Shown here: piece by piece, positions 1 to 12,210 of the stretch
Numbering within the stretch: position 1 is the stretch's first letter
How the letters are laid out: every line of letters starts with the position of its first letter
NCBI RefSeq assembly: GCF_009914755.1
Contig: NC_060929.1
DNA length: 64,000 nucleotides
Source: the human T2T-CHM13v2.0 reference genome, Homo sapiens
Strand: one strand, 5' to 3'
Translations under genes and position numbers: made by a program
The notes under the pieces: model-generated
Database searches by the model: none
Told to the model about the DNA's origin: nothing
The model's input: only the letters and a program-made list of their open reading frames with translations

Positions 1-2700
1 ATCGCCCCTTCCCCTATTACACTGGGAACATAGGAGGGCTGGGTAATACATTTAGTCCTGGCCCAGGTCTAGTTTATATTGAGTCCACTGGGTCCACAGG
101 TCCACCTCATGGTTATTATGTTTTCCTTATCCTCGAATATATCTAACTGGTATGAGTGTTTGGTAAAACCTTACAGTGGTTCCCCAGTCTGTGGGATAAA
201 AGATACAGTAGAAAGGAATACTAAGTGGAATCTTTGAAACTGCCCCTACACCACTCTTAGCCAGGATAATAAGTAAATGACAATATTGTAACTTGGGGGC
301 AAGGGCAGAGATTAATGCCATGTTTAAAGACCTAAAAGGATTCAGGAATGGGTCTCCATCATGTCCCACTTAATTGACCAGTCTGCTCCCTACAGATGGA
401 TCCTTGAGGATGACAGTGGACTACTGCAAATTGGCCAATTATACCTGCTGTGGCAGATGTATTATCTTTGTTAGGGCAGATTAATAAGGCCCTCAGATAG
501 TTGGTATGTGGCCATTGATCTGGGAAATGCCTTCTTTCCCATCCCTTATAGGAGGGAAGTCTAGAAAGTTCACATTCACTTTGGATGCACAACTGTCAAC
601 TATAAATGTTAATTCATCTGCCCGTCGTCATAATATAGTCAAAGGATCTGGATCCTCTGGACATTATATCACATTAGTCCACAGATTGATAAAATTGTGT
701 GATTTGGACTGCATGAACAAGAAATTACAAACATATCAAAGGCCTCGGTAAGATACATGCCCACAGTGGTTGAAAGAGAAACCCTATAAAGATTCAGGGG
801 TCTGGGATCCAAAGGTCTATGATATCCCTGTCAAAGGAATATTGTATTTCATAACTTCCCCACTCAGAAGTAAGCACAGTGGTTGGTAGGCCCCTTCAGA
901 TTCTGGAGGCAGCATATGTCATACAGAGAACACTATTCCAACCCATTTACACAAATAGCATCCAGCTCCGAATGAGTCTCAGAACAAAAAAGGGCTCTGC
1001 AGTAGGTCCAGGCTACGAGGCAAATGATTCTTCCTCTTGGACCATACTACCTAACAAACCCAATGATATTAGAGCTGTCAGTGATGGGAAAGGGTGTCAT
1101 GTGGTGTTTCTGGGCATGTTCCAGTTGGAGAATAACAACATAGGCCCCCTAGAATTCTGCAACCAAGCCATGACCCCCATAGTAGAAAATTATAGACCAT
1201 TTGAAAAACAATTCCTTGGGTGCTACTGCGCCCTGGTTGACACAAGTGATCATGCTTCCAGAACTGACCTGAGATCTGTCCAGCCCACAAAATCATAAGG
1301 CTAGGCAGACCCAGCAAAGATCTCTGCTAAGATGGAAGTGGTGTACATGGGAAAGAATGGGGCCAGAGTGCACACGTTAGCTGCACAAGTCCTGGCCCCA
1401 GTTTCGTTTTCCACTGTTGACCAATGCCTTTCCCTCAGCTCCTGGGTAAGACAATGGTGAGGAGAAACGCTTCCAATGGGCAGAACATTTGAGTTGTGCA
1501 CATGGGCATCCACTGGGTATGAAAGTAAAAGTGGCCCAAGGTAAGAGTACTTATGGAAGCATAGGCAATAGCTAATGGCTTGGCTGGTTAGTTAATGGAT
1601 CAGAAGATCAGGAACAAGGAGGTTTGGATAGGAGGCATGTGGGTGAATCTATGGGAATAAGCATGAAAATACAATCTTTCTTTTTGTTTGGTATCTGAAA
1701 AGTCTGAATCGTATGTTACCTGACAGAGAGCATCTATCACAAAGAGGTGCTTACACAATCAAATAGACAGAAAGACTCACTAGAATGTCACTCTGCCTCT
1801 GTTATTGGCCACTGCAGTGTTGGCACAATAGGAACTTGAGTAGAGAAGCCATAGTGACAGGGATGGAGGCTGCACATGGTCCTAACAGCAGGGGCTTCTG
1901 CTCACCAAGGCTGATTGAGCTACTGCTTGTGTCAAATATCCCATCTACCAGTAACAGAGAGCAAGGCTCAGCCCCTGATTCAGCACCTTCGCTTGAGGAA
2001 ACCAGCCACTTGGTGGCAAGTAACTTTGGATGCCTTCCATCTTGAATAGGGAGCAAATTAATTCTGACTGGAATTGATACATATTCTGGATATGAACTTT
2101 CCTTTCCTGGCTGCATGGCCTCAGCCAACAACACTATCCAAGGACCTACAAAGGGTTTGATCCACCTACCTAGGATCCTACATAACCTCACAAAGGACCA
2201 AGGAATTCACTTTACAACAAAGGAGGTACAGCAGTGAATACAGATCAATGAGACTGATTGACTGGTCTTGTCACAAGCCCCGAAACCTAGAAGCTGCTAG
2301 ATTGATAGAGTAATGAAATGGCCTTTTAAAGGGACACCTGAACACCAGCTTGGAGATGATACCTTGTGAAGAGGGACATATTCTATAGGATGTAACATAT
2401 ACCCTAATTATAACAAATATATGGTGCTGTGTCTCCAGTAGGTAGACTCCGTAAGTCGAGGCATCAAGAGGTAAAAGTAGGAGCGGCCCCACTTCTCCCA
2501 GTGATCCACTTGGGAAATTTGTGCTTCTGGTCCTCACAAGTCTAGGATCTATGGGTATAGAAGTCTTGGTTCCCAAAAAGGAAATGCTGCTTTCAAGCAG
2601 AACGAGAGTCACATTAGCTTTTAGTCTGCAGCTGCCTTCTAGTCCTTCTGGCTCCTCAAATCAGGAGACCAGTAGGCAAAGAAAGGAGTTTGCATCCACC
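1..2700 (+). mobile_element. Degenerate ERVL-class internal sequence (pol RT, integrase and dUTPase remnants), truncated by the window start
   Basis: About 440-545 reads across frameshifts as IIPAVADVLSLLGQIN...WYVAIDLGNAFFPIP (ERVL RT). About 2010-2110 gives WQV...LTGIDTYSGY (integrase). About 2500-2660 gives DPLGKFVL...GIEVLVPK (ERVL dUTPase-like). Many stops and frameshifts. Confidence 0.85.
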
Positions 2701-2930
2701 GTTACTCCACAGCTCATTGAAGTCTGACCAAAAGAGTGTCTTTCAGAGTACCATAAATAGTAGCTATAATGGCTCATCTAGTGGAAATCACAGCCATTTT
2801 GGAGACAGATTTCATTAGGACTCTGCTACTACTGACAATACAGCTCACTCAGTGAGATGCCAAAACCAAAACATTTAACATACTCTGCCTCCTCACACTA
2901 TATATATATATAGCCTATCAAGTTACCCAC

Positions 2931-2933
<3 letters not shown>

Positions 2934-2974
<41 letters not shown>
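2934..2974. repeat. (TA)n microsatellite, about 20 units, with a shorter TA run at 2899-2912
   Basis: Read directly from the sequence. Confidence 0.95.
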
Positions 2975-2975
<1 letters not shown>

Positions 2976-3115
2976 CCTATTATATACTAGGTAACTTGCC
3001 TGTGTAAGATCACAGGATTTGGGAAATATAATTTCTATGTTATAACTAGCTTCTATAATAGATTGCTTAGTAAAATGAATAGGATTGGGAAAAAGATAAA
3101 AAGGAACTTACTGAT

Positions 3116-3480
<365 letters not shown>

Positions 3481-5049
3481 TTACTTTGAGCCCATCATAA
3501 AATAAACCATTGTCAGTGTTTGAAAGAATTCCATGTCCTGCATATCCGAGGGTGATTAATTACATGGCTTCTAGAGTCAAAACACGATTTCCAAACCTAG
3601 TTTGGTCTTTTAATTAAACCAAATAATCTCTGTAAGTCTGTTTTCTCATCTGTAAATAGGAATGCCAGTGGTACTTACCTCATAGAACTATTGTGATGAT
3701 TACATGCCATATAGAGTGCTTAGCATGTGCCAAACACAAAGAAGTTCAGCATTTCATAAAATTGTGGCTTTTTTTTTTTTTAACTTACATGCCTTTGCCT
3801 CAGCAGTAAGACCATACAAATACAGAAGGAACAAGTCACTGGTTAGTAAATAGTTTTTCACTTTCAAGTGTTTGTTCCTTGGAACGTGCTCATCTGGAAC
3901 CTTCTCTCTCTGATACCGTTCTTAACTACTCAAGCTCCCGAATTTTGGTGTGCTAAGACCTTTCCTCACCACTACGCCAGTCTCTCTTAGGGTTGGGGAG
4001 AGACTGCATATTGCAGCACAGAAATTAAGATCAGAGTATTTTCCACAGTGAAGCTGTTTTAGTTTGAAGGGGCAGAGGTTCTAATTTTTACATTTAAAAC
4101 TCCCTTTGTAGTTTACCTTCCACTTCCTGGAGTTTATTTTTATAGGTACTTTTCATGTTCCAATGAAACCAGAAGAGATACTATACACAAACCTAAAAAA
4201 CCTTTATTCTAGAATTATTAGCAATACATATTCATGTTTTTCAAAGACCTCTCCCCCCAATATGGAGGCTAAAATAGATTATTTTCATATTCCATCCTTT
4301 GACACTAACCGCCACCACCACTCTATCCCTACCCCCACTCCAATGAGCTGGCCCTGTGAATGTGGCCTGGGCCTCCCAGAAAGTTGTCCCATGTTGGCTT
4401 TAATTAGATATTATTTCCCATACATGTGGTATATTTTATGCTAGTTATTTGTAGAAACAACAGACGCTGGTTACTGACTATTCCTTCTACCTTTAAGCTG
4501 CTTTCTAGTGCCCTACAATGGACCACATAGGATTAGAGACACTGGTAAAATTATTTTTTGCACAAAAAGGGCTTCTAAACAGCTTTATAATGTGGAAGTC
4601 ATTATCTTTTCAGTTTTCACTGGACCAGTACTACCTATGCCCTGTTCAAATGATCTTTAAATGTACTTTAAATGTGATTGCAGTAAAATCTACCAAACTA
4701 AAATGCATGTTTAGATGACAGAAATTAGCTACCCTGTAGTTCTGGAGATTTGAAACAATTTGCAGATTTGCTTGTTTAGTAGTCTGGCAGTGGCAACCTG
4801 GAATAGGCCACCGTGTGCCAAGATGATCTTTTGCACATATCCACAATCACCACTTTCAGATTCACTATATAATACACTCTTTTTAATGCAGCCATCACTT
4901 ATCAAAAGCCTAATTCATAAGAGCTTGTGATGTTTTACACCAGGTAGGAGAGGCATAGTTTTGGAGCACAGGGAGGACACAGCTGGGGAAGGATTTCAAA
5001 AGAGATTGAACTGCTGGACACAACTGACTGAGAGAAGATCCAGCCAGAG

Positions 5050-5593
5050 CAGGATCTTTCAACCTCTCCACTTACATTTTGGGCTGGATAATTCATCGTT
5101 GTTGGGGGGGTGTCCTGTGCATTGCAGGATGATTAGCAGCAGCATCCCTGGTTTCTACCCACTAGATGCCAACAACAGCCCCCCCTCCAAGTCGTAACAG
5201 CAAAAATATCTCCAGACACTGCCCAACATTATTATGACACCTATGAGTCAGGGTGCATCAGGTAATCGGAATGAGTCAGGGTGGAGCAGGTAATCGGAAT
5301 GAGTCAGGGTGCATCAGGTAATCGGAATGAGTCAGGGTGCATCAGGTAATCGGAATGAGTCAGGGTGGAGCAGGTAATCGGAATGAGTCAGGGTGCATCA
5401 GGTAATCGGAATGAGTCAGGGTGGAGCAGGTAATCGGAATGAGTCAGGGTGGAGCAGGTAATCGGAATGAGTCAGGGTGGAGCAGGTAATCGGAATGAAT
5501 CAGGGTGGAGCAGGTAATTGGGAATGAGTCAGGGTGCAGCAGGTAATTTGAATGAGTCTGGGTTGCAAAGCCAACCTCAGTTGAGAACTACTG
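5050..5593 (-). mobile_element. MER20 hAT-Charlie DNA transposon, split by a minisatellite insertion
   Basis: 5050-5230 matches the MER20 reverse complement (ttttgggctggataattc...ctacccactagatgcc...tccagacactgcc). The MER20 terminus (gcaaa...gttgagaactactg) resumes at about 5558-5593. Confidence 0.85.
5243..5560. repeat. 28-bp minisatellite, 11 units plus a partial unit, of LTR10 VNTR type (ATGAGTCAGGGTG[GAG/CAT]CAGGTAATCGGA)
   Basis: Units start at 5243, 5271, 5299 and so on to 5495, then 5524, with a partial unit at 5552. Ten perfect TGAGTCA sites. Confidence 0.97.
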
Positions 5594-6333
5594 ACAGAGA
5601 GAATTCAGAGTTCTAGGGAAACACTTGGTATATAGTCTGTACTTTGTTAGGGCCCTGATGGCAGTGGCACCAACTATGAACTACTAAGAGGCATTTATCA
5701 TATGCTGTCAAGAGGCTGACATTTAAAGCCCCTTTCAGTTGGATCCCAGTCTACACTTCTCAGAGTCTACTCTCTTCCTTGAATGCCAGTGTTAGATACT
5801 GATTAAGGGATTATGCAATCTATTTAGTGGGTCCTAACCAATATTTTTTAAAAAATGAAATAATGGAATAGAATAAAATAATACAGAAAATATCAATACA
5901 TTTTGTGGAATAATACTGATTTGCAAGATTTTTTATTCTGTGTGTGTGCACAGCTGTATGTTTAGTCATATTGTTACCAGAAAGGAGTCCCGATCCAGAC
6001 CCCAAGAGAGGGTTCTTGGATCTCGTGCAAGAATGAATTCAGGGCTAGTCCGTGGTGCAAAGTGAAAGAAAGTTTATTAAGAAAGTAAAGGAATAAAAGA
6101 ATGGCTACTCTATAGACAAAGCAGCCCCGGGAGCTGCTGGTTGTCCATTTTTATGGTTATTTGGGGTGGATTATTCATGCCTCCCCTTTTTAAACCATAT
6201 AGGGTAACTTCCTGATGTTGCCATGGCATTTGTAAACTGTCATGGTGCTGGTGGGAATGTAGCAGTGAGGAAGAGCAGAAGTCACTCTCGTTGCCATTTT
6301 GGTTTTGGTGGGTTTTGGCTGGCTCTTTTACTG

Positions 6334-7056
6334 TGTTATAAAGTTTCAGTGCCACAAAAGAAATAGTACTCGAAAATAAATGTTTGTTTTTAATTCTCAG
6401 CAAGGCAAGGTACTTCTATAGAAGGGTGCACCCTTACAGATGGAGCAACGATGAGCGCACACTTGGACAAGGGAGGGGAAGGGGTTCTTATCCCTGACGC
6501 ACGTGGCCCCCGTTGTTGTGTCTTTCTGCTATTGGCCAGGGTTAGACCGTGCAGGCTAAACTAATTCTGATTGGCTAATTTAAAGAGATCGACGGGGTGA
6601 GTGGTGTGGCGGGAAAAATGGTTATGACAGAGCAAGTAATTGGAATGAGTCAGGGTGCATCAGGTAATCGGAATGACTTACGGTGGAGCCGGTAATTGGA
6701 ATGAATCAGGGTGGAGCAGGTAATCGGAATGAGTCAGGGTGCGTCAGGTAATCGGAATGAGTCAGGGTGGAGTAGGTAATTGGAATTAGTCAGGGTGCAT
6801 CAGGTAACAGGAATGAGTCAGGGTGGAGCCGGTAATCGGAATGAATCAGGGTGGAGCAGGTAATCGGAATGAGTCAGGGTGCGTCAGGTAATCGGAATGA
6901 GTCAGGGTGGAGTAGGTAATCGGAATTAGTCAGGATGGGGCAGGTGATCGAAAAAGGTTGCTTTACGAGGAAGTTAAGTTTAAAAGTAGAAGGCAAAAAA
7001 TTGAACATACTGACATATTGATTCTTTGAAAAGAAATTTAGAACTCATATCTAACA
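6334..7056 (-). mobile_element. LTR10 solo LTR (LTR10A/F-like, HERV-I group) nested in MER41
   Basis: Reverse complement begins TGTTAGATATGAGTTCTAAATTTCTTTTCAAAGAATCAATATG. TG...CA ends. TSD actg/attg (6330-6333, 7057-7060). MER41 sequence is continuous across the insertion. Confidence 0.88.
6630..6951. repeat. LTR10 internal 28-bp VNTR, 11 units, 6 perfect AP-1 motifs
   Basis: Units at 6645, 6673 and so on to 6925. TGAGTCA is intact in units 1, 4, 5, 7, 9 and 10. Confidence 0.95.
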
Positions 7057-7349
7057 ATTGCAACCTGTTTTATCATCAAGGTCTTTATGACCTGTATTTT
7101 GTGCTGACCTCCTATCTCATCCTGTGACTTAGAATGCCTTCACCGTCTGGGAATGCAGCCCAGTAGGATTCAGCCTCATTTTACCCAGCTCCTGTTTAAG
7201 ATGGAGTTGCTCTGGTTCACACGCCTCTGACAATATTGGATATTGATGTAAAATGTATTCCTTATCAAAAGTTGCAGTCAAAAAAGTTTGAGAATCCCTG
7301 TTCTATTTTAACATATCCCCTGGACATACACTTCTCTCCTAATGCCTAA

Positions 7350-7815
7350 CATATCAGTGTCCTATTGCCGAAACAGATTATTACAAGTTTAGCAGCTCGA
7401 AACAAGACAAGTTTATTCTCTTGCAGGAGGTTAGAAATCTAAAATCAGTTTCACTGCTCTAAAGGCAAAGTGAAAGGCTGGTTCCTGGAGGCTCCAGGAG
7501 AGAATATTTTCCTTGTCTTTTCCAGTTTCTAGAGCTGCATTCCTTACATTCCCTGGCTTATGGCCCCTTTCTCCATGTCCCAAGTCAGGAGTATAGCATC
7601 TTCAAATCTCTCTCTGCTCCTCTTCATATTGCCTTCTTTTTCTCTGATCTTCTGCCTCCCTCTTCTAGGGCCTCCTGTGATTACATAGAACCCCCCAGGA
7701 TAACCCAAGGTAATCTCCCCATTTGAAGATCCTTCACTGAATCACTTTTGCCAAGCACCTTTTAGCATATAAAACAACACTTACAAATTCTAAGAATTAA
7801 GACACGGACATCTTC
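7350..7815 (-). mobile_element. MLT1 (ERVL-MaLR) LTR
   Basis: Typical MLT1C/D motifs (aagtttattctc...ggaggctccaggagagaat...ccagtttctagagctgc). Boundaries are approximate. Confidence 0.75.
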
Positions 7816-8391
7816 ACACGTAATGTGTGCTTTACTTTTGTGAGAAGCCCATTGTTCTCTGTACTGACTCAAATCAACCCCTCAATTAAGGCTTTCATCT
7901 CACTTCCCAGAATTGGACATGTTGAGTAAGAAAGGTCCTTATATTTCTAATCCATAAGATGAGGCTAGGCTAAATCCTTGGTGTTCAAGCTCCTTTTCTG
8001 AAGCTCTTGAAATTTTGGTTCACACAAAATTTTACTTGGTATGACAATATGTGAATAAGATGAAAGTTGAACTGCTCTGTTCCCCCATAGTGACCTGCCC
8101 AGTTTCTCACCGCAGAGCCATCCCACTTGCATCTATAGCTGTTAGAGCCAGGGAGACCTGAGAAATTTTCACATTAAACTCCTACCTTTGCTATGCAGAA
8201 AGTAATGGCTACAGAGGTGAAATAACTCTGTGGTACTGGCTCTGCTGTTAATCAGTGGAGTCATTGTCATATACTCTCTGAGACTCAATTTTGTTAGCTA
8301 CGAAAATGAGCATTGAAAGACTTTGTAAAGAAGTGGGATGTGAGAGAGATTTTGAGAAGCATTTAAATTGGTAGGAAGGAGTAGGATATTA

Positions 8392-9050
8392 TGATACGTA
8401 GAATGTTTAAGATAGTCCCCCAGATCCGTGCATCCTAGTGTACAAACCCTGAATAATCCCCTCCCCGTTGTGTGGGCAATGTGTGGGAATATGATACGAC
8501 TTTACTTCTGTGACTAGATTACATTATGTGGCAAAGGTAAAGCGACTTTTGTAGATGTCATTAAGGTTCCTACCCAGTTGACTTTGAATTAACAAAGAGG
8601 AATATTTTCCTGGGTGGATCCAGTCTAATCAGGCAAGCTTTTAAAAAGAGGGTAGGGTCCAAGCATTTGGGGCAGGGAGAGATTTGAAGCAAGAGAGACA
8701 TACTTTTGCTAGCCTCGGAGAAGCAAATAGCTATATTGTAGAGTGGGCCACATGGCAGGAAGCAGCAGCCTGAGATAGCTGAGGAGCTGAGAGAGATGCT
8801 CAGCTGACAGCCAGCAAGACAACAGAGGCCTTGGTCCTACAGCGGAATTCTGCCAACAGCCAATGAGCTTAGAAGAGGACCATGAGCCTCAGGTGAGATT
8901 GTAGCCCTGGACAACATTGGTCGCAACTTGGTGAGACCTTAGACAGAGGATGGATTCCAGACCCATGGAAAATTTGAGGTTATAATGGGAATTGTTTTAA
9001 GCCTGTAAGTTTATGGTAATTTGTTATACTGCAATAAAAAAGCTAATAAC
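8392..9050 (+). mobile_element. MLT1 (MLT1E-like) LTR
   Basis: Ends with the MaLR 3' signature tgttttaagcc...ggtaatttgttatactgcaataaaaaagctaata. Confidence 0.75.
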
Positions 9051-9129
9051 AGTATTCAAGGGATTCACCAGAGCAGAATCTAAACTATGCAGGTGTGGTA
9101 TATGAATATGAATATTAAGTGATTTTATC

Positions 9130-9390
9130 CAACAACATGGAGGAATCTCAAATGCATATTTGCTCATTGAAATAAACCAGACCCCAAAGGCTGCATACCG
9201 TATGAGTCCTTTTAGATGACATTCTGGAGAAGACAAAACTATAGGGATGAAGAACAGTGGTTATCAAAGGTTGGGAATAAGGGAAGGAGCTGACTACAAA
9301 GGGCAGCATGTGCAAACTAAGGTAAGTGACCTGTTCTGTATTATGACTGTATGTTCTGTATTATAATAACATACAGGCTTATTAGAAACA
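9130..9390 (+). mobile_element. Old L1M 3' fragment
   Basis: caacatggaggaatctcaaatgcat...tgacattctggagaagacaaaactataggga resembles the L1MC/ME 3' end. Confidence 0.6.
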
Positions 9391-11559
9391 TGACATGCTG
9401 CTTTGACCAGCGTCACAGCTGCATATGGCGATCTGGATCCTTCATGTGGCATGCATGCAAGTTCAGACTGACTGTGTTCCACTGATGGCCAAGGAGTCAC
9501 CGGCATCACACACAGTTATCCAGTGTTCCTTAAGATAATATGACCCAATAGGGTAAATAAACGGGAAAAATGGTGTTAGTCATTCCTAACAGTGCGGTCA
9601 TGTTAATCACGACTGGTTATTCTTTTGAGATGGGAAGAGTAAAGTATGGAAGCTAAAATCTGTGAGCCAAGGTCAAGTTTATGCAATGTTTAGCCACAAA
9701 GCTTATCTTTGAATGGCCTGTAAAGCAATAGTACTTACTCTCCAACAGTAAATGCCATGTCTTTTGACCTAGCACTTGCATGCTTGCTTTTATTCACCCC
9801 AAGTAAAAAATCCCAAAGAATTCCATCTTCTTTTAAAATTAAATTTAAATTATTCTGCAAAAACCTTAAAATGTTTTCCTAAAGCTTGTCTGCTTTGTAG
9901 ATCCCTCCACTACTTTTCAGTACCACTAAATATAGTAGAACAAAGTTCTTAATGTGCAACTTCAAAGCTTATTTATGCCATGATGATACAAGTGCTTACT
10001 ATTAAGACATTTCCTTTTTATTCAATAAACTTCTGACTTATATACAAAGGATTCATTGCTCAATAAAAATCACATTACCAAATAAAAGTGAAACGATTTA
10101 TTGTATTCTGTGGGCTGCATCTACAAAGATGAAAGTATCCTCAATAGAGGGTTTATTAATTTATAAAGAATGTAGACTATCCATGAGAGTTCCCTGTACA
10201 TTAACAGTCCGGCAGGAATATTAAAAATCCAGGGATTCAATTTCCATTTGCAAAGCGGGGAGGATGCTGCCCTACCTATCTCTGGTTTGATGATCATCAA
10301 AGTTTTCAATGCAGGAATCCCAGAGTTTGCAGCCAAATAGAAACAATTTTGTGGTAACCTTTACAATAGGCTTTTCCCCTCACTTAATCCACTTTCATCA
10401 AGTGAATGTAAAAAATAACTAACAAGCTAAATCACCATACTTATTTCAGGGCTGGTCATATATATTAGATCACCTGGCATTATGTAAGCAAGAGTACAGG
10501 AGCTGGAATGAATTGGCTTATTAAAGGAAGTAAAGATCAGGCTTTCAGGAGTGGAGGGCTGCAGAGAGGGAGTGGTGGGTGTGTTGTTTGAGAAGCAAAC
10601 TAGGCCTTGAAAATTAGGCTGAGGAGTTCTGATGTTATTCCCTGAAAACTTTTAAGCACATTGACAATTTTTTTTGATAAATGCACATTCAACCAGTGTT
10701 TGAAATATCTAGCTTCATCAATTTGGAAAAGAAATACTTAAGAAATAATTATGTGTTCCAGTTAAACATAATTGAATAAGCGTTCTTAGTACACCATTCT
10801 CCTCAAAACTGACTCAAAAATCTAACAATAATAGGACAGAAACAAAAAGATCTTCCCACCGCTGCAAACCAAAACCAAAACAAAACAAAAAACCCTCTAT
10901 CTTCAATAAAATAACGAAATGGTCTTAAGTCCAGGCCACAAACTGAAAGCATACTTGAAATATTGTGAAAGCAAAGTGAGGGAGAAAAGTGAAAATTCAA
11001 CCTACCTTCTAAGATCTTTAGCTGGAAACATTTCCTTGCAAGGAATTGTTATATTGTAGAAAAGTTTATCTTAAAAAAATCTTTTAGCGTGGTCATGCCT
11101 AAGGATGTAGATGGTCCAGCGGAGAAGCAGGGAATCCCTCGAGACAGTTTAGGAACCACAGGACGCCGGGCCGTGGGGCTGAAGGAGAGCTTTGCTGATG
11201 TGCCACCCTCACCCACATCAAGCCTCCTTGTCTGGGGAGATCACGTGAATCCACATTTGAAGACCTGCTCTTCGGATACCAGCACACAGAGCCTGGGTCT
11301 TAAAGCTTGGGGTGCCACATTGCCTCTTGAATGGTAACATCTAAAAATTAAAAAAAGACATGCTTCCAAAAGAAATAAGATATTACTGAAATAATCTGAG
11401 ACAAAGAAGACAGCTGCCCTAGTTCACTCTCTTACCCCTCCTCACACTATTTTTTGACCCTGGTTGACAATATAAGCAACGATTTTAAATGAATAACATG
11501 GCACATATACATAGATACCACCAAAAAAAGGAGTGAGAGAGGAAAACAGCAAAATACGC

Positions 11560-12210
11560 TCAAAGACATAGGAATTAATTAAGCCCTGTAGAGTTTCAAA
11601 GAAATGTTAGATAGCATGATTTCTCTAAAAAGAGAACTCGAAGAACAGATGTGAGAATTTAAAGAACATAAGAGAGAAGAAAATAAAAAGACCTGGATAA
11701 CTCAAAAAGAAATAAAAGAAAAAATAATTATACTTTAGAAGAGATGCAGGAAGGAAGGGAGGAATGGAAGAAAGAAAGATTAGGAAGAAAGAAAGAAAAA
11801 ACGAGCTTAAGAAAAATCATACCATGAGACAGAAAAAAACAAAGGACATAAAAATTGATTCTAGAGAATGTGATAGTTATGGAAGATAGATAAAGGAACT
11901 TCAACAGTCACACACTTAGTATTTCTAAAGTACAGAACTGAATAAATAGAACCCCAAACATATTTAAGAATATGATTTTTTAAATAAACTTTGTAGATGT
12001 AAACAAAATCTTGAGTCTGCAGGCTGAAAGGGCCCAGGAGATGCAAGAAAAAAATACATAAGTCCATATGTACACAAATTCACTCCAATATAGGGTCTGC
12101 TGGAGTTGCTAAATTTCAAGATAAGAAAATTGATAGGAAAAGTGAGTTACGTAGAAAAGGGGAAAATCAGATTCTCTTTATACTTCTCCATAGTTGTATT
12201 ATCTACAAAA
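11560..12210 (+). mobile_element. Ancient HAL1 or L1 ORF1-like fragment
   Basis: A-rich with ORF1-like remnants (gagtctgcaggctgaaagggcc, aaaggggaaaatcagatt). Highly diverged. Confidence 0.45.

What the first reader, a model, noticed from the sequence alone, without database searches (positions are those of the whole stretch)
5231..5562. Orphan LTR10 AP-1 minisatellite inserted into a MER20, with no LTR around it
Seen: 11 units of the same 28-bp motif as the LTR10 VNTR 1.1 kb downstream, in the same orientation, split a MER20. There is no flanking LTR sequence, TSD or poly-A. The left junction has a short filler containing ttatgaca, which also precedes the LTR10 array at about 6622. The right junction merges via gagtc/tggg. 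The orphan is purer than the donor candidate (10 versus 6 intact TGAGTCA) and lacks its gcgtc, ggagt and ttagtca variants. Established: LTR10 VNTRs carry AP-1 sites and can act as MAPK/AP-1 enhancers. Inference: a break-repair templated copy of only the enhancer module, followed by independent expansion, i.e. enhancer spread without retrotransposition.
Basis: partly seen in the sequence, partly recalled or inferred. Interest (0 to 1): 0.8.

Follow-up and report, generated by a model that had tools for sequence, protein, structure and literature searches.

The report
Flankless local copy of LTR10 enhancer repeat
A block of eleven AP-1 binding-site repeats sitting inside an old MER20 transposon is a local copy of the repeat array of the retroviral LTR 0.8 kb away, made without retrotransposition and later expanded, and it forms half of an already published cancer enhancer of ATG12.

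Summary
Window 5243-5558 carries 11 full 28-bp units plus 7 bp, with 10 TGAGTCA sites. It splits a MER20-type repeat cleanly and has no LTR flanks, target-site duplication or A-tail.

The array comes from the LTR10F solo LTR at 6334-7056. One unit variant occurs 8 times in the whole 3.1-Gb genome, 4 in each array and nowhere else. Both arrays are preceded by TTATGACA, and their first full units are identical.

Units 1-9 of the orphan are perfect copies of only two unit types, while its edge units are decayed. This fits an old short founder copy followed by later expansion.

None of 98 other LTR10-type arrays examined lacks both LTR flanks. One other locus (chr2) has a 35-37-nt piece of the repeat inserted in an Alu about 1.2 kb upstream of its LTR10F, in the same orientation.

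The locus matches the published CRISPRi-validated "LTR10.ATG12" enhancer, "formed by two LTR10F elements". The enhancer function is therefore known. What is new is that one "element" is a repeat-only copy.

The mechanism, a microhomology-primed templated copy, is inferred. No primate orthologues or other human haplotypes could be examined.

The parts
5050..5231 (.). Left part of the host repeat (MER20-type DNA transposon copy), ending ...CCAACAT
   Evidence: the 113-nt query 5120-5232 gives 40 scored matches at 77-86% identity elsewhere in the genome; aligned with 8 copies. The start at 5050 was read by eye. The family name is recalled, not given by a tool.
5232..5242 (+). Left junction: TTATGACA (identical to LTR10 6622-6629, the 8 nt just before its array) followed by CCT, which stands in place of the 15-nt partial unit of the LTR10
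   Evidence: TTATGACA only at 5232 and 6622 within window 1-12000; the 21-nt junction word is unique in the genome.
5243..5551 (+). Eleven full 28/29-bp units with 10 TGAGTCA (AP-1 TRE) sites and 1 TGAATCA. Units 1-9 are perfect copies of two types (CATCA x4, GAGCA x5). Units 10-11 are decayed edge units.
5552..5558 (+). Partial twelfth unit ATGAGTC. It overlaps in sequence with the host repeat's ATGTC...TGGG at the break (possible microhomology).
5559..5593 (.). Right part of the host MER20-type repeat, resuming TGGGTTGCAAAGCC... and ending ...GAGAACTACTG
6334..7056 (+). LTR10F solo LTR (TGTT...AACA). Candidate 4-bp duplication ACTG (6330-6333) / ATTG (7057-7060). Inserted in an older LTR-like repeat (about 5971-6333 and 7057-7231, bounds by eye).
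   Evidence: its 5' part (6337-6629) matches 71 of 72, and its 3' part (6951-7049) 72 of 72, other array-bearing loci. The subfamily name comes from the paper. Its quoted LTR10F motif context cctgactcatt is the reverse complement of the unit's AATGAGTCAGG.
6622..6950 (+). Donor region: TTATGACA, a 15-nt partial unit, then 10 full units and a decayed eleventh. Six TGAGTCA sites. Built as a 5-unit (140-bp) higher-order duplication.
   Evidence: the two halves differ at 8 of 140 positions.

Best explanation
The array at 5232-5558 is a retrotransposition-independent copy of the 5' part of the tandem-repeat (VNTR) region of the LTR10F solo LTR, which starts 775 bp downstream on the same strand.

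Most likely sequence of events (inferred): a break or stalled fork inside the MER20-type repeat was repaired by microhomology-primed DNA synthesis that switched to the downstream LTR10 array as template. Synthesis began just before TTATGACA, ran through a few units (a founder of roughly 4 units, about 140 bp), and returned to the MER20 at an ATG(A)GTC...GGG microhomology. This left no duplication, no A-tail and almost no loss of target DNA. Replication slippage or unequal exchange then expanded the interior to 11 units.

Functionally the array supplies 10 of the locus's 16 perfect AP-1 sites. Together with the LTR10F it forms the MAPK/AP-1-dependent LTR10.ATG12 enhancer that others validated by CRISPRi.

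Shown here: local origin, the flankless anatomy, and the purity of the interior units. Inferred: the repair pathway, the founder size, and the array's own share of enhancer activity.
For: 1) Private variant. TCAGGGTGC[A/G]TCAGGTAA occurs 8 times in the 3.1-Gb genome, 4 in the orphan and 4 in the neighbouring LTR10, with 0 in the reversed control. None of 115 units parsed in 72 other LTR10F-type loci has it.

2) Collinear edges. Both arrays have TTATGACA directly 5'. Orphan unit 1 is 28/28 identical to neighbour unit 1. Orphan unit 10 carries TGAATCA+GAGCA like neighbour units 3 and 8. That unit type occurs 9 times genome-wide, 3 of them here.

3) No LTR flanks. Flank-versus-LTR10 alignments do not exceed shuffles. 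No other LTR10 piece lies in the window.

4) Clean split of the host repeat with at most about 6 bp missing. No target-site duplication or A/T run.

5) Exceptional anatomy. All 98 other arrays examined have at least the 3' LTR10 flank and 97 of 98 also the 5' flank: 72 loci (L027 lacks the 5' flank) and 26 loci.

6) Later expansion. Units 1-9 are two unit types with no substitutions, while units 10-11 differ by 2-3 changes from the nearest donor unit.

7) A second, smaller case with the same geometry. In L002 (chr2) a 35-37-nt unit piece sits in an Alu, absent from 4 of 4 other Alu copies aligned. It lies about 1.15-1.23 kb upstream of an LTR10F array in the same orientation.

8) Function. The paper describes LTR10.ATG12 as 'formed by two LTR10F elements on chromosome 5, located 87 kb from ATG12 and AP3S1', silenced by CRISPRi with loss of ATG12/AP3S1 expression (passages read). 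By the hub's gene table, the orphan lies 87.3 kb from the ATG12 start and 86.9 kb from the AP3S1 start.
Against: The 8-nt TTATGACA match is not significant as a free local alignment (64 of 300 shuffles score as well). Its weight rests only on its position.

The 15-nt partial unit of the donor is replaced by CCT in the orphan, and the two bases before TTATGACA differ (TA versus GG). The left junction is therefore not a simple copy.

The unit order of the orphan interior does not match the donor, so the founder size is a model, not an observation.

Canonical polymerase-theta templated insertions are 3-30 bp, with synthesis tracts rarely above 10 bp, copied from DNA right next to the break (passages read). 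A roughly 140-nt copy from 1.4 kb away does not fit that pathway as described.

The identification with LTR10.ATG12 rests on chromosome, distance, subfamily, element count and neighbouring genes. The paper's coordinates are in supplements that could not be read.

Only one human haplotype was examined.
Confidence: 0.7

Rival explanations
1. Two-step origin. A tandem duplication of about 1.5 kb, running from the MER20 break point to inside the LTR10 array, created the right junction (ATGAGTC|TGGG). A later 1.39-kb deletion in the first copy then joined the MER20 left half to TTATGACA.
For: It gives the same final sequence and the same two junctions. Tandem duplications and deletions at microhomology are both common events (general knowledge).
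Against: It needs two independent events whose end points happen to restore a nearly intact MER20. No remnant of the duplicated intervening 1.39 kb is present: no second copy of the LTR10 5' part lies in the window.
Confidence: 0.12
2. Capture of a free DNA fragment. A piece excised from the LTR10 array, for example during a repeat contraction, was ligated into a nearby double-strand break by end joining.
For: No target duplication and little target loss. The short untemplated-looking filler CCT. The inferred founder (about 140 bp) equals the 140-bp higher-order period of the donor.
Against: The fragment would have to include 8 nt of non-repeat LTR sequence, which a within-array excision would not release. 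The same-orientation, same-side geometry is seen twice (window and L002). Capture does not predict this, though two cases prove little.
Confidence: 0.1
3. An independent flankless fragment from a distant LTR10F landed here by chance and later exchanged unit variants with the neighbour by gene conversion.
For: Gene conversion between nearby similar arrays is plausible and could spread the CATCA variant (inference).
Against: About 990 LTR10A/F/C elements are reported. A random site therefore lies within 1.5 kb of one with a probability of about 0.001 (my arithmetic). The shared TTATGACA plus identical first unit sit at the array edge, where conversion is least expected. A non-retrotranspositional insertion mechanism is still needed.
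Confidence: 0.03
4. An ordinary LTR10F integration whose two flanks were later deleted, or an assembly artefact.
For: RepeatMasker-type annotation evidently calls it an LTR10F element: the paper speaks of 'two LTR10F elements'.
Against: The host repeat is continuous to within about 6 bp on both sides of the array. Two deletions would have had to end exactly at the integration site. There is no flank similarity. The paper aligned reads to hg38 (methods passage) and describes two LTR10F elements at the locus, so a second assembly appears to carry both.
Confidence: 0.02

Closest known systems
LTR10A/LTR10F internal VNTR acting as an AP-1/MAPK-dependent enhancer (Ivancevic et al., Sci Adv 2024, PMC466953). 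This locus matches their LTR10.ATG12.
   Same: Same 28-bp unit with an AP-1 site, and the same locus. The enhancer was validated by CRISPRi, and indels with 28-30-bp periodicity are reported at the locus (passages read).
   Different: The paper's main text treats both parts as 'LTR10F elements'. A word search of the main text found no 'truncated' or 'MER20', and 'fragment' appears only in method contexts. Here one of the two has no LTR sequence beyond 8 nt and was not made by integration. Supplements could not be read and may show the annotation.
Locally templated insertions of polymerase-theta end joining (TINS; Carvajal-Garcia et al., PNAS 2020, PMC7165422)
   Same: Direct-repeat insertion copied from DNA on the other side of a break, microhomology at the switch points, short filler, no target duplication.
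   Different: TINS are 3-30 bp with tracts rarely above 10 bp, and the template is immediately next to the break. Here the contiguous tract is at least 35 nt (L002) or about 140 nt (window model), and the template lies 1.2-1.4 kb away.
Replication-based template switching (FoSTeS / microhomology-mediated break-induced replication). Recalled from general knowledge; no paper was read here.
   Same: Forward and return switches at short microhomologies, a template within kilobases on the same or the sister chromatid, and small complex fillers at the junctions.
   Different: It is usually invoked for kilobase-to-megabase rearrangements. No experimental link to this locus exists. The pathway cannot be told from sequence alone.
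Minisatellites derived from transposable elements (general knowledge; no paper was read here)
   Same: A tandem array whose unit comes from a mobile element.
   Different: Such arrays normally sit inside the element that bore them. This one has left its element and sits in a different, unrelated repeat.

Membership tests
LTR10F solo LTR (integration product) | LTR sequence 5' and 3' of the repeat region | tested here: not met
   Orphan flanks versus LTR10 do not exceed shuffles. In contrast, 97 of 98 other arrays have both flanks.
LTR10F solo LTR (integration product) | Short target-site duplication and TG...CA ends | tested here: not met
   No duplication at the junctions. The host repeat is continuous across the insert.
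LTR10F VNTR sequence | 28-bp unit with AATGAGTCAGG (the paper's LTR10F motif context, reverse complement) | tested here: met
   The motif is quoted. The unit-junction word is found in LTR10 loci genome-wide.
L1-mediated retrocopy | A-tail and 7-20-bp target-site duplication | tested here: not met
   No A/T run of 6 or more in 5200-5620 and no flanking duplication.
Polymerase-theta templated insertion (TINS) | Insert 3-30 bp, copied from DNA adjoining the break | tested here: not met
   The insert is now 327 bp, the founder model is about 140 bp, and the template is 1.4 kb away.
Polymerase-theta templated insertion (TINS) | Microhomology at the switch points | tested here: inconclusive
   Possible ATG(A)GTC/GGG overlap at the right junction and AAATG at the left, judged against other MER20 copies. 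The pre-insertion allele is not available.
AP-1-dependent enhancer | Clustered TGAGTCA sites | tested here: met
   10 perfect sites at 28-bp spacing.
AP-1-dependent enhancer | AP-1 occupancy and effect on target genes | not testable with these tools
   Published for the locus as a whole. Not resolved between the two arrays.

The most novel reading that the evidence does not exclude
The repeat module of LTR10 (and perhaps of other VNTR-bearing mobile elements) can seed new AP-1 site arrays in nearby unrelated DNA by templated repair, without retrotransposition, and such seeds can then grow into enhancer-sized arrays. On this reading the chr2 case (35-37 nt in an Alu) is the seed stage. The chr5 case is the grown stage, and it now carries more perfect AP-1 sites than its parent within a validated enhancer. 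This would be a recurrent, local route of enhancer spread.
Probability: 0.25. Interest if true: 0.65.

Novelty: new variant of a known kind. Interest (0 to 1): 0.45.

Why it matters
LTR10.ATG12 is one of the few ERV-derived enhancers with functional validation in cancer cells. If most of its perfect AP-1 sites (10 of 16) lie in a repeat-only copy outside the LTR, three things follow.

1. Deletion, reporter and variant studies of 'the LTR10' need to treat the two arrays separately.
2. Repeat annotation overstates the number of integration events.
3. There is a concrete, datable example of a regulatory module spreading locally by DNA repair and then expanding.

The private unit variants give unique markers for assigning reads to each array.

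Tried and rejected
Supplementary tables of PMC466953 (element coordinates, motif counts, guide RNAs) could not be read. The identification of the locus and the paper's annotation of the orphan are therefore indirect.

Earlier findings of this scan were not open.

The junction word with up to 2 mismatches gave 4 other hits, against 3 in the control. The three I fetched (L071-L073) have no LTR10 similarity, so they are chance matches.

No other MER20 copy lay in the window or in the first 75 loci, so copies were found with a genome search.

Hairpin-driven fork stalling was considered. Single-strand DNA folds of three-unit stretches of both arrays, on both strands, are no more stable than shuffles (z 0.11 to 1.26). 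No support.

A search for further unit pieces outside the LTR10s found only L002 in 178 kb across 72 loci. The best reversed-control hit scored 26 bits, against 54 for L002. Nothing further was found in the window.

The genome BLAST scored only 40 of 339 candidates, and pattern listings stop at 100 rows. The survey of arrays is therefore a large sample, not a census: 223 one-mismatch matches were never seen.

Literature searches: 'LTR10F'+'ATG12' returned one listed paper. 'LTR10'+'VNTR' found 16 papers, 15 listed; of these, two were read in passages (PMC466953; PMC5753468) and the rest were seen only as listings. 'Templated insertion'+'minisatellite'+'microhomology' found 10 papers, 9 listed (listing only). 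None of the titles, abstract starts or passages seen describes a flankless LTR10 array.

Full report
**What is there**

Tandem Repeats Finder reports two period-28 arrays 1.07 kb apart on the same strand.
- 5243-5563: 11.4 copies, 93% matches.
- 6630-6950: 11.5 copies, 82% matches.

Split into units, the first array has 11 full units plus a 7-nt ATGAGTC, with 10 perfect TGAGTCA sites and one TGAATCA. The second has 10 full units and a decayed eleventh, with 6 TGAGTCA, 2 TGAATCA and 2 TTAGTCA.

The second array lies inside a complete solo LTR, 6334-7056. This LTR has TG...CA ends and a candidate 4-bp duplication, ACTG/ATTG. It is itself inserted in an older LTR-like repeat. Its 5' part matches 71 of 72 other loci that carry the same unit, and its 3' part matches 72 of 72.

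The first array has no such flanks. Local alignments of its flanks against the LTR score no better than shuffles, and the only shared word is TTATGACA.

**The host repeat is split cleanly**

I used the left flank as a query to find other copies of the host repeat (40 scored matches at 77-86% identity). I then aligned eight of them across the site.
- The window's left half stops at ...CCAACAT.
- The right half resumes at (GTC)TGGGTTGCAAAGCC.
- The other copies read straight through, so at most about 6 bp are missing.
- There is no flanking duplication and no A/T run of 6 or more.

This excludes an ordinary LTR integration that later lost its flanks, and it excludes an L1-type retrocopy.

**Where the array came from**

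The orphan alternates two unit types, one with GGAGCA and one with GCATCA after CAGGGT.
- None of 115 units parsed from 72 other LTR10F-type loci has the GCATCA type.
- A whole-genome pattern search for TCAGGGTGC[A/G]TCAGGTAA gives exactly 8 matches in 3.1 Gb, with 0 in the control. Four are in the orphan and four in the neighbouring LTR10.
- Both arrays are immediately preceded by TTATGACA, which occurs nowhere else in window 1-12000.
- The first full unit is identical in the two arrays, 28/28.
- The orphan's tenth unit carries TGAATCA+GAGCA like neighbour units 3 and 8. That unit type occurs 9 times in the genome, 3 of them here.

The two arrays therefore share history that no other LTR10 copy in this genome shares. 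I treat derivation of the orphan from its neighbour as close to settled. The residual alternative is a foreign fragment that later exchanged variants with the neighbour. That requires an insertion to fall by chance within 1.5 kb of one of roughly a thousand elements (count), which is about 1 in 1000 by my arithmetic.

**Founder and expansion**

Units 1-9 of the orphan are perfect copies of just two sequences. Units 10 and 11 differ by 2 and 3 changes from the nearest donor unit and have lost the unit's CpG.

Read from the edges, the order is: TTATGACA, CATCA unit, GAGCA unit, ..., TGAATCA unit, a C-type unit, ATGAGTC. This is collinear with neighbour units 1-4 plus the start of unit 5.

My model is a founder copy of about 140 bp, followed by interior expansion of about seven units. 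The interior order itself does not match the donor, so the founder size is an inference.

The decayed edges suggest the founder is old, but with about five informative changes I make no numerical claim. The donor array is itself a 5-unit duplication whose halves differ at 8 of 140 positions.

**How unusual it is**

- I fetched 72 other loci holding the unit-junction word: 70 exact-match loci and 2 one-mismatch loci, taken from the first 100 rows of 323 matches.
- I also fetched 26 further loci from the best genome BLAST matches to the orphan.
- All 98 arrays have the LTR10 3' flank, and 97 also have the 5' flank. L027 is 5'-truncated. In a few loci a flank is displaced by an insertion.
- None is flankless.
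- This is a sample, not a census: 223 one-mismatch matches were not listed, and only 40 of 339 BLAST candidates were scored.

By BLAST extent, both arrays of this locus are among the longest of their type in the genome.

**A second, smaller case**

In L002 (chr2, LTR10F on the minus strand) a 35-37-nt piece of the unit (1.25 units) sits inside an Alu. It is absent from 4 of 4 other Alu copies aligned. It lies in the same orientation as the LTR10F and about 1.15-1.23 kb upstream of that LTR10F's array.

It was the only such hit in 178 kb of non-LTR sequence around the 72 loci. It scored 54 bits, against a best reversed-control hit of 26 bits.

The geometry matches the window, where the orphan lies upstream, in the same orientation, 1.4 kb from donor start to copy start. 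Two cases cannot establish a rule, but they suggest the chr5 array began as a similar short seed.

**Mechanism**

The anatomy is that of a templated copy made during repair:
- direct orientation;
- a template within about 1.4 kb on the same side;
- the donor left intact;
- almost no loss at the target;
- a small filler, with CCT replacing the donor's 15-nt partial unit;
- possible microhomologies. Other copies of the host repeat read AAATGTCCCCTGGGG at the site. This resembles both the LTR's AAAATGG before TTATGACA and the unit's ATGAGTCAGGG.

It works like the direct-repeat class of polymerase-theta templated insertions. It does not meet their description: 3-30 bp, tracts rarely above 10 bp, template adjoining the break (passages read). 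A more processive template switch, or synthesis-dependent repair on the resected other end or the sister chromatid, fits better. The pathway cannot be decided from sequence.

Three alternatives give the same or nearly the same product, and I list them as rivals: a tandem duplication followed by a 1.39-kb deletion, capture of an excised fragment, and a foreign fragment followed by gene conversion.

The repeat shows no tendency to form hairpins.

**Function and what is already known**

Ivancevic et al. [quoted passage not shown]
- CRISPRi silencing lowers ATG12, AP3S1 and eight other genes.
- LTR10A/F elements carry a 28-30-bp VNTR with the AP-1 motif.
- Motif number correlates with FOSL1 binding and H3K27ac.
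- Indels are seen at this locus in short- and long-read data.

By the hub's gene table, the orphan lies 87.3 kb from the ATG12 start and 86.9 kb from the AP3S1 start. ARL14EPL, also named in the paper's figure legend, is the next gene downstream. I therefore identify the window's pair with LTR10.ATG12. The paper's coordinates are in supplements I could not open.

The enhancer role is thus already in print. The main text does not say that one of the two 'elements' is a repeat-only copy in another transposon. Its word search found no 'MER20' or 'truncated', and the searches showed no other paper on it, judged by listing. RefSeq's enhancer feature (6339-7538, hub annotation) covers only the true LTR.

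That the orphan contributes most of the AP-1 binding is my inference from its 10 of 16 perfect sites.

**Verdict**

The repair mechanism is plausible but inferred.

The finding is a new anatomical and evolutionary variant within a known system, at a locus of proven function. It is of moderate interest. It would rise if primate orthologues show the empty site and the founder, and if a census shows that such seeding recurs.

Noticed in passing
L002 2702-2738 (G000:C2:23800747-23803747, minus strand): A 35-37-nt piece (1.25 units) of the LTR10F repeat is inserted in an Alu. It lies about 1.15-1.23 kb upstream of an LTR10F array, in the same orientation as that array. It is absent from 4 of 4 other Alu copies aligned.
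   Followed up: yes
G000:C15:23495567-23499158 (edges held as L085, L086): An LTR10-type repeat array of about 3.6 kb (roughly 128 units), bounded by the LTR10 5' and 3' parts. This is far above the 'up to 33 copies of the AP1 motif' the paper reports for the reference it used. Only the edges were fetched.
   Followed up: partly
window 5243-5563 and 6630-6950: Tandem Repeats Finder gives both arrays the same length (321 bp), although their unit orders differ. I take this as coincidence but did not test it. By BLAST extent, both are among the longest arrays of this unit type in the genome.
   Followed up: no
window 6645-6924: The LTR10F array is a 5-unit (140-bp) higher-order duplication. Its halves differ at 8 of 140 positions, so its own expansion is old.
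   Followed up: partly
window about 5971-6333 and 7057-7231: The LTR10F is nested in an older LTR-like repeat (TGTT...GACA). The flanking 4-mers are ACTG and ATTG. The family was not named by any tool.
   Followed up: no
L054 (G000:C18:9037726-9040726) 1389-1820 and 2056-2543: Two LTR10F copies lie head-to-head in inverted orientation, about 235 bp apart.
   Followed up: no
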